From: Escherichia phage vB_EcoM_KAW1E185
Direction: 5' to 3' (one strand)
Sequence record: NC_054922.1
DNA length: 64,000 bases
Positions 27,222 through 30,989 of the stretch are shown piece by piece. The position numbers were made by a program, and so were the translations under genes. The notes beneath the pieces were generated by a model that was not told the DNA's origin, made no database searches, and was given only the letters and a program-made list of their open reading frames with translations. How positions within the stretch are numbered: position 1 is the stretch's first letter; each line of letters opens with the position of its first letter.

Positions 27222-27759
27222 TTACTATTTCCAAAAGTTTATTATTTTTAAGGTAATTAGCCTTTTCTAGGACTTCAGAAGCATATTTAGAACCAGCTTT
27301 AACATTCCATCCCGAATTATAAGAGGATATTGCTTTTCTTATATCGCCCTTATGTATATTTAACCAATAAGAAAGTTCAATGTACGCCCATGAAGCTGAA
27401 TTGGATCGTTTATTCAACATTCTTTTTATTTCAGCATCGGTCATATTATAACCAAGTTCCTTAACTCTTGCTCGCATAGTAGGCAAATAATTTTGGAACA
27501 TTCCATAGGCGTGATGCTTTGGTTTAGATTTTAAATTAACTCCGCCAGAGCTTTCTTGCCATAAAATGGCTGCCATTATATGACCTAATCCGCTCTTGTG
27601 GATATTTTTATGTGTTTTATATTTTCCATCCTTAGAAAATTGTTCCCCGAATTGATACGCGTAACGCATGTTATCGAGTTGGACATTACTGAAAGTATGC
27701 TCGGAGCTATGTGCCATCATTGAAATGGCCAATAGACCAGCGAGTAGTGCTTTTCTCAT
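27214..27759 (-). CDS. Secreted lytic-transglycosylase-like (SLT domain) protein, 181 aa
   Basis: Signal peptide MRKALLAGLLAISMMAHS; motifs WQESSGG, YGMFQ, SSYNSG. Confidence 0.55.
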   Translation of the reverse strand: MRKALLAGLLAISMMAHSSEHTFSNVQLDNMRYAYQFGEQFSKDGKYKTHKNIHKSGLGHIMAAILWQESSGGVNLKSKPKHHAYGMFQNYLPTMRARVKELGYNMTDAEIKRMLNKRSNSASWAYIELSYWLNIHKGDIRKAISSYNSGWNVKAGSKYASEVLEKANYLKNNKLLEIVND

Positions 27760-27766
27760 GCTTACC

Positions 27767-28228
27767 TCATTGAGTTTTAATTACTGCTTTAGAAGCCTTT
27801 CCTGGTAAACGACGACTGTTAATAATTGCCATCCTACATTGAAGTGACGGGTCTTTGAACTTCTCATTAGGTTTACAAACTGTAAATCCAAGCCAAAGAT
27901 TTCCATCTGTGATTTCTAAACGTCCAGGACGATATTCAACCCCATCAATAAAATCCTCGTCAATGTCAGGACGCGGAGGCATACTCAGGAATTCATTAAC
28001 TTCTAAAACATGGTCTTTTATTTTATGGAATAATTCAAAAACATATGTCTCATCAATCTCCCGCTGAATTGCGCGATCAAGAAGATGCTGAGAATATTTT
28101 AGATGAAACGATGAGACCCCTGCTGCTTTTGATGCCTCACGAATCTCATTGTTAATTTGACGAAACTCCGACTCAAAGTGACGACGAAGCTTATTTCGAC
28201 GGATAAAAACTTCTGTATTGATAGTCAT
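27767..28228 (-). CDS. regB: Endoribonuclease RegB
   Basis: 153 aa beginning MTINTEVFIRRNKLRRHFESEF; recognised as T4 RegB from memory. Confidence 0.8.
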   Translation of the reverse strand: MTINTEVFIRRNKLRRHFESEFRQINNEIREASKAAGVSSFHLKYSQHLLDRAIQREIDETYVFELFHKIKDHVLEVNEFLSMPPRPDIDEDFIDGVEYRPGRLEITDGNLWLGFTVCKPNEKFKDPSLQCRMAIINSRRLPGKASKAVIKTQ

Positions 28229-28255
28229 GTTGTTCTCCTCTTAACTGATAGAAAA

Positions 28256-28284
28256 ATTATACCACAGTCAAGAGGAAAAGTAAA
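28256..28284 (-). promoter_or_regulatory. Early promoter upstream of regB
   Basis: Minus strand TTTACT - 17 nt - TATAAT. Confidence 0.6.
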
Positions 28285-28287
28285 CAG

Positions 28288-28566
28288 TTATTCTTTAAAT
28301 CTAATCAATTTATTCATAGACTTTGAAACTTCTGCACGAACCTCATGTAGATTTTTGAGCTGTTCAAGACGCTGCGTATAGTAAGCAATTTCATCTTCTT
28401 CGAGACAGTCCTGCGAATCTTCTTTAAGATAACGTGCATAGTCCTGGAAAGCGTTACGGACTACTTCCTGGAAGTCATCAAGACTTTGAATTTTCTTAGG
28501 AGCAGCAGACACACGACGAGGGGCAGTATAATACTCATAACCAAACCCTGCGCTTAATTGAGCCAT
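28288..28566 (-). CDS. Hypothetical small acidic protein (92 aa from MAQLSAG)
   Basis: ATG overlaps stop of upstream ORF. Confidence 0.45.
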
Positions 28567-28832
28567 TAGTATTTTTCCTCTGGTTGGAACACAGCACGAC
28601 AAGCCCACATACTGGCTTCTTTGAGTTTCGTTTTAGCAATAGCTAACTGATCGAGGCTTTCAGCATAATTCTTCGCGAGTTCAAAGTCTTCGCAATCGTC
28701 CCACGCTTCCCAGAATTCATCGTATAAAGCGTCAAAGATAAGTCCTAAACGAACTTCAGCGTCTTTGATAGCATTCACTTTACCGATTTTCTCTTCAGTA
28801 TGTGGTTTATAACCCTTAATATCTTCAATCAT
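28566..28832 (-). CDS. Hypothetical small acidic protein (88 aa from MIEDIKG)
   Basis: SD GAGGAAG upstream of ATG 28832. Confidence 0.45.
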
Positions 28833-29046
28833 ATTTGACTTCCTCACCAGTACATAAATCATATTCAACTAAACGAATGGGTTCATGAATGCCATATCCC
28901 TGAACAGAAATTTCTGTCGTAGGATAAATTCCATCAATATCACCCATATTCCACGCTTCATTAAATTGCTGTTCACCTGAATTACTAAACCACTCGGCGA
29001 AAGCATTTAGCACATCTTTAGAACCTTCAATAATTATCTTTGCCAT
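28825..29046 (-). CDS. Hypothetical small protein (73 aa)
   Basis: ORF track. Confidence 0.45.
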   Translation of the reverse strand: MAKIIIEGSKDVLNAFAEWFSNSGEQQFNEAWNMGDIDGIYPTTEISVQGYGIHEPIRLVEYDLCTGEEVKYD

Positions 29047-29408
29047 TACAAACTCTCGGTGAAGGTACGAGCGATAACGTCGCGCTGCTGTTCCGGAGTC
29101 AGAGAGTTAAAGCGAACTGCATAACCGGATACACGGATGGTCAGCTGCGGATATTTTTCCGGATGCTTAACTGCATCTTCCAGAGTTTCACGACGCAAAA
29201 CGTTAACGTTCAGGTGTTGACCACCTTCAATTTTAACTGTAGGTTGTGGCTCAATTTCAATTTCACGGGCATGCAAACCATAGAAAATTTCTGGGTCTAC
29301 AAAAGAGTCCTCTTTAAAGGTTTTAGAGACAATAATTCGTGCTTGAATACCATCTTCAAAATAAATAGTACCTTTATGTGTGCCTTCAAGAATTTGATAT
29401 GCTTTCAT
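29046..29408 (-). CDS. Autonomous glycyl radical cofactor (GrcA/YfiD-like; T4 Y06I-type)
   Basis: C-terminal [29 protein letters not shown] glycyl-radical domain. Confidence 0.85.
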
Positions 29409-29415
29409 ATAAACC

Positions 29416-29796
29416 TCAATTAGAAAATAAATTTATCCAAGATTGTTCTTTAATTAAAAATGGCTCAGAATCATATGCCATTAAACTTTGCGTAATTAAT
29501 CCTTTAAAAGGTCCATCAATAAATTCCATGGTAAAATATGGAATTTTATTCATTAGCCGTGCATTAGGAGCAGTGCACAAAACTCTGCATCCTTTGAATA
29601 CGCCTTTTTGTAATTTGTATTGCTTAGGATAAAATTCACTTAAAATGTTATTTTTTGCCAAAATTTCAAAATGATTCACCAATTTATTTTTAATAGTTTT
29701 TGGTGAAAAATAAAGATATTCAAAAAGTTGCGCATCTGTCATCATTGCATTCCGATTACGAAAAACTGTGGACGAGTAATACCACCAATGCAACAT
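29416..29796 (-). CDS. Hypothetical protein (126 aa); possible 3' part of a split P-loop NTPase
   Basis: Overlaps upstream ORF by 55 nt in another frame; contains LCTAPN. Confidence 0.4.
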
Positions 29797-30281
29797 TTAC
29801 TATTACAGCAGTAGTGTACAGTGTCAATATGGACACTATAAATCTTATCCATATCAGGAGATTTGACAGGCTCATCAATTATATACAAAATTCGCGAAAG
29901 CGATAAACCTCTGAACTTGCTTCCTTTATTACCAATAAAACTGCGCACAGAATCAGTAAATAAACGAAAACGTATATCATCATTAGAATAACGCGAAAAT
30001 TCCTTTTTGATGTTATTTGCAGAAATTTTAGCGTAAGCTGAAGTATTAGAAAGAACAATAACTGTTCCGCCATCATACAACCAATTAGCAGCAAAGTTAG
30101 TCACAGCAATTGATTTACCAGATTGACGTCCACCGTCTAGTCGAAGTGTGCAGTACTGTTTAAGTAATTCTTCAAATGGCGGGATATATTCGTTTTTACA
30201 AATTTCTTCTACTCTAGCATCAGAATGGTGTGTAAAAGCATTCATCAGGGATAGATAAGGACCAGTTAAAAATGTTCTCAT
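29742..30281 (-). CDS. P-loop NTPase with terminase-like Walker A (179 aa)
   Basis: Walker A LDGGRQSGKS, Walker B ILYIIDEP. Confidence 0.5.
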   Translation of the reverse strand: MRTFLTGPYLSLMNAFTHHSDARVEEICKNEYIPPFEELLKQYCTLRLDGGRQSGKSIAVTNFAANWLYDGGTVIVLSNTSAYAKISANNIKKEFSRYSNDDIRFRLFTDSVRSFIGNKGSKFRGLSLSRILYIIDEPVKSPDMDKIYSVHIDTVHYCCNSKCCIGGITRPQFFVIGMQ

Positions 30282-30421
30282 TTCTTCTCTCTAAGTTTGG
30301 GCCATTCCATGGCGCATGAATTGTCCATTTCTGTATTTACCCATTACCGCACTTGGGCTCGACCTTATTACAGGTTGGCGGGAATCCCTCATAGAATCAT
30401 GAGGTCCAGGTTGTTCCCATG

Positions 30422-30895
30422 TTATTTGAACGATTTAACGTACTGAATAGAACCTTTACTATTCACAAAGGCAATTTTACCATTTTTGTTATACATGGTA
30501 GCAGTACGTTGATAGCCATAAGTTTGTTTACCAGATTGATAACCAACTAATGCGAAATTATCTTCACCCATTTTATTCTGCTTAGCACGAATGCGTTCAT
30601 GACCATGTGCCATAAGAACCTTAGCATCACCAGTTGCAATGGATCTACGAGTTTTTTCATCTTCAACTGTATTAACAAAGTCGTCAAATGAATCAAATTT
30701 AGCATGAGATTTATTATACAGTTTTCCATCTACTGCATAATTATATCCTTGTACATCCATCTCAACTTCTGTACCATCATCCAGTACAGCAGTGATTTTC
30801 TGTCCTTTTTTAAATTTCAAAAGATCAGTAAAAGATTCAGCAATAATTTGAGAATTAATAGCTGCTTCAGTAATAAATTCTTGATATGTTTTCAT
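30422..30895 (-). CDS. Internal-protein-like capsid-targeted protein (157 aa)
   Basis: N-terminal MKTYQEFITEA resembles the T4 internal-protein capsid targeting sequence. Confidence 0.6.
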   Translation of the reverse strand: MKTYQEFITEAAINSQIIAESFTDLLKFKKGQKITAVLDDGTEVEMDVQGYNYAVDGKLYNKSHAKFDSFDDFVNTVEDEKTRRSIATGDAKVLMAHGHERIRAKQNKMGEDNFALVGYQSGKQTYGYQRTATMYNKNGKIAFVNSKGSIQYVKSFK

Positions 30896-30954
30896 GTGTA
30901 TCCTTTAAATGTAAATATTTTAATTAATAATTTATCTCTTCAAGTAACTGTGAA

Positions 30955-30984
30955 TATACTATCACAATTCTAGGAGAAAGTAAA
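30955..30984 (-). promoter_or_regulatory. Early promoter
   Basis: Minus strand TTTACT - 17 nt - TAGTAT. Confidence 0.55.
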
Positions 30985-30989
30985 CAACT

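What the first reader, a model, noticed from the sequence alone, without database searches (positions are those of the whole stretch)
28288..29046. Three small acidic early proteins between regB and the GrcA-like gene: candidates for small anti-defence factors
ORFs of 92, 88 and 73 aa (28288-28566, 28566-28832, 28825-29046) are translationally coupled and lie in the neighbourhood where T4 encodes small vs.x proteins, one of which (Vs.4) is, as I recall, the cyclic-nucleotide sponge Acb2. I cannot recognise any of them by sequence, so the assignment is positional and speculative.
Basis: inference. Interest (0 to 1): 0.4.

Follow-up and report, generated by a model that had tools for sequence, protein, structure and literature searches.

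The report
Two known phage immune-signal sponges plus orphan
The three small genes are the T4 genes vs.3, vs.4 and vs.5: two of them are already-published "sponge" proteins that soak up bacterial alarm molecules (TadIV-1 and Acb2), and the third is a conserved phage protein whose function is still unknown.

Summary
The window is a T4-like phage (Tequatrovirus): this stretch is 100% identical to Escherichia phage 303Ecol101PP and 98% to T4. The three ORFs are real. They lie on the minus strand, overlap by 1, 8 and 1 bases, have SD-like sequences and are under purifying selection.

- **ORF 28566-28832 is Vs.4, known as Acb2.** It is 83/88 identical to the crystallised T4 Vs.4 (PDB 7UQ2) and matches Pfam Acb2_Tad1_hairpin at 1.2e-20. 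The functionally tested residues Y8 and F82 are intact. All five differences from T4 fall in the family's variable middle segment.
- **ORF 28288-28566 is Vs.3, known as TadIV-1.** This is the N7-cADPR sponge that blocks type IV Thoeris (Nat Commun, April 2026). It is 91/92 identical to T4 Vs.3, is the functional long form, and keeps R17, R18 and K24.
- **ORF 28825-29046 is Vs.5, function unknown.** The family is conserved and confined to T4-like phages. A confident model (pLDDT 88) matches no solved structure and no sponge family. The protein is strongly acidic with no conserved basic residue, so a nucleotide sponge is unlikely.

That biology is already published, so only Vs.5 remains open.

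The parts
28288..28566 (-). vs.3 = tadIV-1 (92 aa): long-form TadIV-1, the N7-cADPR sponge that inhibits type IV Thoeris
   Evidence: 91/92 identical to T4T Vs.3, with V21A the only change. PDB 9WIW (UPEC07 TadIV-1) matches at E=1.3e-37 over the full length. R17, R18 and K24 are present (against the mutational data in PMC13243611). Matches phrog_2037.
28566..28832 (-). vs.4 = acb2 (88 aa): cyclic-oligonucleotide sponge (anti-CBASS), also the trigger of the Panoptes defence
   Evidence: PDB 7UQ2 'Vs.4' matches at E=1.4e-52, 83/88 identical. Pfam PF24729 Acb2_Tad1_hairpin scores 73.8 bits against a cutoff of 27. Y8 and F82 are present. The N-terminal positions E3-E26 and C-terminal positions L70-Y88 are largely invariant across 12 homologues, and the window is identical to T4 in both segments.
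28825..29046 (-). vs.5 (73 aa): conserved orphan alpha/beta protein, strongly acidic, function unknown
29044..29048 (-). TAATG junction: the vs.6 stop overlaps the vs.5 start by 1 nt
   Evidence: Read from the sequence.
28825..28832 (-). ATGATTGA junction: the vs.4 start overlaps the vs.5 stop by 8 nt
   Evidence: Read from the sequence.
28564..28568 (-). TAATG junction: the vs.4 stop overlaps the vs.3 start by 1 nt
   Evidence: Read from the sequence.
29046..29408 (-). vs.6, the GrcA-like glycyl-radical cofactor (upstream flank, same transcription direction)
   Evidence: Pfam Gly_radical 2.8e-18. NCBIfam TIGR04365 matches at 3.7e-45, which is below its curated cutoff.
27767..28228 (-). regB endoribonuclease (downstream flank)
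   Evidence: 100% identical to T4T RegB over the tblastn match. Annotated as regB in T4T.

Best explanation
This is the vs.3-vs.4-vs.5 segment of a T4-type phage, transcribed leftward from the vs.8/vs.7/vs.6 side towards regB.

Two of the three products are characterised immune-signal sponges from unrelated families, encoded side by side.

- **Vs.4/Acb2.** It assembles into a hexamer. Pockets built from the conserved N- and C-terminal segments of neighbouring protomers sequester cyclic oligonucleotides such as 3'3'-cGAMP. CBASS effectors are then never activated. The same sponging of a decoy nucleotide makes Acb2-carrying phages visible to the Panoptes system.
- **Vs.3/TadIV-1.** It is a dimer of two-helix hairpins. 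Its flexible N-terminal loop (R17, R18, K24 in T4 numbering) sequesters N7-cADPR, the signal that a TIR protein makes to activate the caspase-like effector of type IV Thoeris.

The identification of both genes is shown here by sequence. Their activities are taken from published experiments on T4 proteins that are 94% and 99% identical.

**Vs.5** is a real, selected gene found only in T4-like phages, and its function is not established. My inference (about 0.3 for the anti-defence part) is that it acts by binding a basic protein partner or by mimicking nucleic acid, not as a nucleotide sponge. The family has a net charge around -10 and no conserved Lys or Arg.
For: Identity of the locus: this stretch is 100% identical to Escherichia phage 303Ecol101PP and 98% to T4/T4T. 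Gene-by-gene correspondence to T4T vs.3, vs.4 and vs.5 is shown.

Acb2:
- PDB 7UQ2 at E=1.4e-52 and distant matches to PaMx33 Acb2 entries 8H2J/8IXZ.
- Pfam PF24729 at 1.2e-20.
- The five differences from T4 (L44W, N46D, C50F, F52L, T64A) all lie in the variable middle. The segments that form the pocket are identical to T4 (pocket description in PMC10419184).
- The Y8A and F82C alleles abolish function in T4 (PMC12657218). Both residues are present here.
- Published function: cGAMP binding, a hexamer with 3 cGAMP, and CBASS inhibition (PMC10449767).

TadIV-1:
- PDB 9WIW at E=1.3e-37 and 91/92 identical to T4 Vs.3.
- T4 Vs.3 was shown to be necessary and sufficient against type IV Thoeris and to bind N7-cADPR with KD about 216 nM (PMC13243611).
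- Only long forms are active, and R17/R18/K24 matter. All of these features are present here.

Vs.5:
- Conservation and purifying selection.
- A confident orphan fold.
- Composition.
- Conserved position between vs.7 (or vs.6) and acb2 in all 35 IMG/VR loci.
Against: No binding or infection experiment was done on these exact proteins.

The window's Acb2 differs from the crystallised protein at 5 of 88 positions, and its TadIV-1 carries V21A inside the ligand-binding loop. Either could in principle change affinity, although position 21 is variable among active homologues (alignment).

Phage T2 encodes a functional TadIV-1 yet is still sensitive to type IV Thoeris. Presence of the gene therefore does not guarantee resistance.

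For Vs.5 there is no positive functional evidence at all. The proposed protein-binding or mimicry mode rests only on charge and the lack of conserved basic residues.
Confidence: 0.88

Rival explanations
1. All three genes, Vs.5 included, are anti-defence factors. The segment would be a compact counter-defence islet, with Vs.5 inhibiting a third, still unidentified defence system.
For: Vs.5 is small, acidic and translationally linked to acb2. It keeps its place immediately upstream of acb2, or of vs.6-acb2, in 33 of 35 diverged loci. The family has variable C-terminal extensions.
Against: Gene order is conserved throughout T4-like genomes, so adjacency is weak evidence. Vs.5 alone did not inhibit type IV Thoeris. 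It has no similarity to any known inhibitor. Acb2 occurs without Vs.5 in at least 255 more records and Vs.5 occurs without Acb2 in L014, so the two are independent.
Confidence: 0.3
2. Vs.5 is a host-takeover or regulatory protein rather than an immune antagonist. It might work together with the conserved upstream genes vs.8 (P-loop NTPase-like) and vs.7 (basic, pI 9.1).
For: vs.8-vs.7-vs.5 is the most constant part of the cluster across genera, whereas vs.6, acb2 and vs.3 come and go. Vs.5 is acidic and Vs.7 is basic. Vs.8 has Walker A/B motifs and weak AAA/terminase-ATPase matches. One genome (PG7) carries a Vs.7::Vs.5 in-frame fusion.
Against: The PG7 fusion is a single sequence and looks like a frameshift relative to its close relatives. 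No interaction was tested, and my attempt to model the fusion failed at the alignment stage.
Confidence: 0.3
3. The ORFs are chance open frames in AT-rich DNA or mis-called genes, and the real feature lies on the other strand or is an RNA.
For: The plus strand carries mechanical ORFs of up to 127 aa across the same region. The promoter and terminator scans are at chance level.
Against: There is purifying selection in the minus-strand frames. Two of the products have solved structures and published functional data. There is no Rfam match on either strand.
Confidence: 0.01

Closest known systems
T4 Vs.4 / Acb2 (anti-CBASS 2; PDB 7UQ2; Pfam PF24729 Acb2_Tad1_hairpin)
   Same: ORF 28566-28832 is the same gene. 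It is 83/88 identical, has the same length, and its N- and C-terminal pocket segments are identical, including Y8 and F82. It occupies the same genomic position.
   Different: Five substitutions (L44W, N46D, C50F, F52L, T64A) in the variable helical-hairpin middle. This exact allele has not been tested.
[quoted passage not shown]
   Same: ORF 28288-28566 is 91/92 identical to the founding member. It is the 92-aa long form and keeps R17, R18, K24, K48, E49 and H74.
   Different: One substitution, V21A, in the flexible N-terminal loop. It lacks the 9-residue loop insertion of the crystallised UPEC07 protein, as T4 itself does.
Other phage sponge families (Tad1, Tad2, Acb4, sequestin, lockin) as candidates for Vs.5
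   Same: Vs.5 is small, phage-encoded and sits next to two sponges.
   Different: Vs.5 has no detectable sequence or fold similarity to any solved structure. It has no conserved basic residues. It is predicted to be an alpha/beta fold rather than a helical hairpin.
Acidic phage-encoded inhibitors that act by DNA mimicry or protein binding (e.g. Ocr, Arn; recalled from general knowledge)
   Same: High negative charge density (net about -10 over roughly 75 residues) and small size.
   Different: There is no homology, and the resemblance is compositional only. No target is known.

Membership tests
Acb2 (ORF 28566-28832) | Sequence membership in the Acb2/Vs.4 family | tested here: met
   Pfam PF24729 scores 73.8 bits against a cutoff of 27, E=1.2e-20. 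PDB 7UQ2 Vs.4 matches at E=1.4e-52 over residues 1-88.
Acb2 (ORF 28566-28832) | Conserved N- and C-terminal segments that form the cyclic-dinucleotide pocket, including the functionally tested residues Y8 and F82 (T4 numbering) | tested here: met
   Y8 and F82 are present. Most positions in E3-E26 and L70-Y88 are invariant across 12 homologues, and the window is identical to T4 in both segments. The mutant data are in PMC12657218 and the pocket description in PMC10419184.
Acb2 (ORF 28566-28832) | Homo-hexamer that binds three cyclic dinucleotides | not testable with these tools
   No multimer prediction is available. Inferred from 94% identity to the crystallised hexamer.
Acb2 (ORF 28566-28832) | Sequesters, rather than cleaves, CBASS signals and rescues phage on CBASS hosts | not testable with these tools
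   Needs ITC/HPLC and plaque assays. Published for T4 Vs.4.
TadIV-1 (ORF 28288-28566) | Homology to T4 Vs.3 / UPEC07 TadIV-1 | tested here: met
   91/92 identical to T4T Vs.3. PDB 9WIW matches at E=1.3e-37.
TadIV-1 (ORF 28288-28566) | Long form (>80 aa) carrying the N-terminal flexible region; short forms of about 70 aa are inactive | tested here: met
   The protein is 92 aa with a full N-terminus aligned to T4 and UPEC07. The criterion comes from PMC13243611.
TadIV-1 (ORF 28288-28566) | Ligand-contact residues R17, R18 and K24 (T4 numbering) | tested here: met
   All three are present in the translation.
TadIV-1 (ORF 28288-28566) | Dimeric two-helix fold that binds N7-cADPR and inhibits type IV Thoeris | not testable with these tools
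   Inferred from identity to the tested T4 protein. This allele (V21A) was not assayed, and the paper's supplementary tables are not held.
Any known nucleotide-sponge family (for Vs.5, ORF 28825-29046) | Sequence similarity to a described or solved sponge or inhibitor | tested here: not met
   phmmer and the family profile against all PDB sequences give no relevant hit. There is no Pfam or NCBIfam family. hhalign against the Acb2 and TadIV-1 alignments gives probabilities of 0.2-0.3%.
Any known nucleotide-sponge family (for Vs.5, ORF 28825-29046) | Fold similarity to a solved sponge | tested here: not met
Any known nucleotide-sponge family (for Vs.5, ORF 28825-29046) | Conserved basic residues able to hold phosphates | tested here: not met
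   No alignment column exceeds 61% K+R. Seven columns are at least 90% D/E. The median net charge is -10. This is an argument from composition, not a binding test.

The most novel reading that the evidence does not exclude
Vs.5 is a third, undescribed counter-defence protein with a new fold. It would neutralise a bacterial immune protein by acidic mimicry or direct binding rather than by sponging a nucleotide. It may have been overlooked partly because the T4 reference record carries a frameshifted 58-aa version of the gene.
Probability: 0.25. Interest if true: 0.55.

Novelty: already known. Interest (0 to 1): 0.22.

Why it matters
For this phage, the result predicts resistance to cGAMP-type CBASS and to type IV Thoeris, and sensitivity to Panoptes. 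This bears on host-range prediction and phage-therapy design.

It also shows that public annotation lags the literature. The identical GenBank record still calls these genes 'putative 10.9/10.2/6.6 kDa proteins', and other records mislabel them as RegB-like endonuclease or DNA glycosylase.

The only open question is Vs.5. It is a conserved orphan next to two sponges, and it can be tested cheaply by deletion and by expression screens against defence panels.

Tried and rejected
- **Literature on vs.5.** Four full-text searches combining vs.5 with phage terms found nothing. One search on 'vs.5/vs.6/vs.7' alone returned only clinical papers using 'vs.'.
- **Remote homology for Vs.5.** A full HMMER scan of 1.84 billion representatives found only small phage proteins. 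The other hits were spurious matches to FG-GAP-like and lipoprotein repeat proteins that share a 'WFxNxGxQ' or 'LEYEGF' motif.
- **Vs.7-Vs.5 interaction.** I tried to test it by modelling the natural PG7 fusion. MAFFT aligned the Vs.7 homologues onto the Vs.5 half, so the alignment was unusable and the job was not submitted. The fusion itself looks like a single-genome frameshift.
- **Context from Vs.7 and Vs.8.** Neither has a PDB or Pfam relative beyond a weak P-loop signal in Vs.8.
- **RNA element or opposite-strand gene.** There is no Rfam match, and promoter and terminator hits are at chance level.
- **Common origin of Acb2 and TadIV-1.** Both are helical hairpins, but hhalign probability is 0.7%, so they are not detectably related.
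- **Whether this Vs.3 allele was tested in the TadIV-1 paper.** The supplementary files are not held.

Full report
**What is there**

The 64-kb window is a T4-like myovirus. The stretch 27700-29500 is 100% identical to Escherichia phage 303Ecol101PP and 98% identical to T4, T4T and T2. It matches 810 phage records in all.

The three ORFs named in the finding exist at exactly the stated coordinates, all on the minus strand: 28288-28566 (92 aa), 28566-28832 (88 aa) and 28825-29046 (73 aa). Against the annotated T4T genome they correspond one-to-one to vs.3, vs.4 and vs.5. The order is vs.8-vs.7-vs.6-vs.5-vs.4-vs.3-regB-vs.1.

- The vs.6 stop and vs.5 start share one base (TAATG).
- vs.5 and vs.4 overlap by 8 nt.
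- vs.4 and vs.3 share one base (TAATG).
- Each start has a GAG/GAGGA-type SD-like sequence upstream.

Calculated pI values are 5.5 (Vs.3), 4.6 (Vs.4) and 4.1 (Vs.5).

The genes are not chance ORFs. tblastn finds them in 692, 1242 and 987 phage records respectively. dN/dS against T4T is 0.13, 0.12 and 0.04. Vs.5 has a median dN/dS of 0.27 over 257 diverged pairs. No Rfam family matches either strand, and promoter and terminator pattern hits are at the level of shuffled sequence.

**Vs.4 is Acb2**

The 88-aa protein matches PDB 7UQ2, deposited as 'Vs.4', at E=1.4e-52 over its whole length. It also matches the Pseudomonas phage Acb2 entries (8H2J, 8IXZ) distantly. It scores 73.8 bits on Pfam PF24729 Acb2_Tad1_hairpin, whose cutoff is 27.

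It differs from T4T Vs.4 at five positions: L44W, N46D, C50F, F52L and T64A. An alignment of 12 homologues from different genera shows that positions in E3-E26 and L70-Y88 are largely invariant, while residues ~31-69, between the two conserved ends, are much more variable. All five differences fall in that variable middle.

[quoted passage not shown] The T4 alleles Y8A and F82C lose function (PMC12657218). Both residues are present here.

Published work on T4 Vs.4 shows the following:
- cGAMP binding, a hexamer with three bound cGAMP, and sponge-type inhibition of the CBASS effector CapV (PMC10449767).
- Acb2 is necessary and sufficient to trigger the Panoptes system, by sponging its decoy 2',3'-c-di-AMP.

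**Vs.3 is TadIV-1**

The 92-aa protein matches PDB 9WIW at E=1.3e-37. The depositors' molecule name, 'Endoribonuclease', is a carried-over misannotation. The entry belongs to Chen et al., Nat Commun 2026 (PMC13243611).

That paper identified T4 vs.3 by a T4 x T6 mating screen as the sole T4 inhibitor of type IV Thoeris and named it TadIV-1. Its main results:
- It binds, and does not degrade, N7-cADPR, with KD about 216 nM.
- Only long homologues (about 90 aa) are active. Short ones (about 70 aa) are not.
- The UPEC07 homologue is a dimer of two-helix protomers with a disordered N-terminal loop that is needed for binding.
- In T4 the residues R17, R18 and K24 are important.

The window protein is 91/92 identical to T4T Vs.3, with V21A the only change. 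It is the long form and has R17, R18 and K24. By the alignment it also keeps the counterparts of UPEC07 K57, E58 and H83, which are K48, E49 and H74. The identical protein sequence occurs in other phages, such as HP3 and NBG2.

**Vs.5 remains unassigned**

There is no PDB, Pfam or NCBIfam match for the single sequence. PHROGs places it in phrog_1986, function unknown.

A profile built from diverged homologues recovered 71 protein clusters; those named by their source come from T4-like phages. A full HMMER scan of 1.84 billion representatives added only a few more small phage proteins and some spurious repeat-protein hits. The profile finds nothing in PDB sequences at E<=10.

An AlphaFold2 model built on 61 sequences is confident (mean pLDDT 88.3). 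It has a helix at 10-33 followed by strands at 44-49 and 58-63. It has no meaningful structural neighbour:
- Foldseek against PDB gives a best E of 2.3.
- BFVD returns only the protein's own family.

Profile-profile comparison with the Acb2 and TadIV-1 alignments gives probabilities below 1%.

Invariant residues are F16, G24, E25, Q26, E30 and E61. Nearly invariant residues are I6, W19, F20, G50, V60, Y62, D63, T66, E68 and E69. No column is conserved as Lys or Arg (maximum 61%). Seven columns are at least 90% acidic, and the median net charge of the domain is -10. That composition argues against a phosphate-binding sponge and for a protein-binding or mimicry role. This is inference only.

In the TadIV-1 study each of Vs.3 to Vs.8 was expressed singly, and only Vs.3 inhibited type IV Thoeris.

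**Genomic context in relatives**

In 35 IMG/VR loci and four GenBank phages, vs.5 always sits in the same cluster.

- vs.8-vs.7-vs.5 is nearly constant.
- acb2 follows vs.5 directly, or after vs.6, in 33 of 35 loci. It is absent in L014 and apparently disrupted in L013.
- vs.3 is present in only about half of the 35 loci, often as the short form.
- vs.6 lies upstream of vs.5 in Tequatrovirus, downstream of it in Jiaodavirus and PG7-like phages, and is absent elsewhere.

Acb2 occurs in more records (1242) than Vs.5 (987), including a siphovirus. Vs.5 can also occur without Acb2. The two genes are therefore independent.

Some Klebsiella phages extend Vs.5 at the C-terminus to 114 or 163 aa.

**Verdict**

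The segment encodes two unrelated signal sponges in tandem: Acb2 (published 2023) and TadIV-1 (published April 2026). Both are already in the literature, so the finding is not new biology.

The practical gain is annotation. The identical GenBank record still lists these genes as 'putative 10.9/10.2/6.6 kDa proteins'.

The residual interest is Vs.5, a conserved orphan-fold protein beside two sponges, whose role is open.

**Limits**

No multimer modelling or ligand docking was possible. The afdb50 library was unavailable. The activities of Acb2 and TadIV-1 are inferred from near-identity to tested T4 proteins, not measured for these alleles.

Noticed in passing
window 28825-29046; L006 (AF158101.6) 722-939: The classic T4 reference record has a 1-nt deletion at vs.5 codon 17/18, which gives a frameshifted 58-aa '6.6 kDa' product. 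T4T, this window and all relatives keep an intact 72-80 aa ORF. A T4 proteomics table lists the Vs.5 protein as not classified (NA), possibly because the reference protein sequence is wrong.
   Followed up: partly
L002 3716-3997; L004 3001-3231; phage records; PDB 9WIW: Several records mislabel these genes. Acb2 is called 'RegB-like RNA endonuclease'. Vs.5 and Vs.3 are called 'pyrimidine dimer DNA glycosylase'. Vs.3 is called 'endoribonuclease RegB'. The PDB entry for TadIV-1 carries the molecule name 'Endoribonuclease'.
   Followed up: partly
window 29046-29408 and loci L002, L031, L034-L038: The GrcA-like gene vs.6 lies upstream of vs.5 in Tequatrovirus but downstream of it in Jiaodavirus and PG7-like phages. 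It is absent in Dhakavirus- and Marfavirus-type loci, so it behaves as a mobile insert within the cluster.
   Followed up: partly
window 30282-30989: Between vs.8 and the lysozyme gene e, this phage has a single 157-aa internal-virion-protein-like ORF (30422-30895; phrog_3155; capsid-targeting start MKTYQEFI). T4 has denV, ipII and ipIII at this position. No denV homologue is detectable anywhere in the 64-kb window.
   Followed up: partly
window 29742-30281 (-): Vs.8 carries a Walker A motif (GGRQSGKS) and a hhhhDE Walker B-like motif. It has weak matches to AAA_14 and to the terminase large-subunit ATPase. It looks like a small uncharacterised P-loop NTPase, conserved together with vs.7 and vs.5.
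   Followed up: partly
P0061 (Enterobacter phage PG7; L034 2719-3231): A 156-aa ORF fuses Vs.7 in frame to Vs.5. Close relatives have separate, overlapping genes, so this is probably a single-genome frameshift and not a meaningful domain fusion.
   Followed up: partly
window 28256-28284 (-): A good sigma-70-like match (TTTACT-17-TATAAT with an extended TG) lies in the 59-nt gap between vs.3 and regB. It is positioned to drive regB. The count of such sites in the region is no higher than in shuffled sequence.
   Followed up: no
L002 3001-3345; L031; P0008, P0010: Klebsiella-phage Vs.5 homologues carry C-terminal extensions, giving 114 and about 163 aa in total, with no Pfam match. A separate PHROG (phrog_17468) covers the long form.
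   Followed up: no
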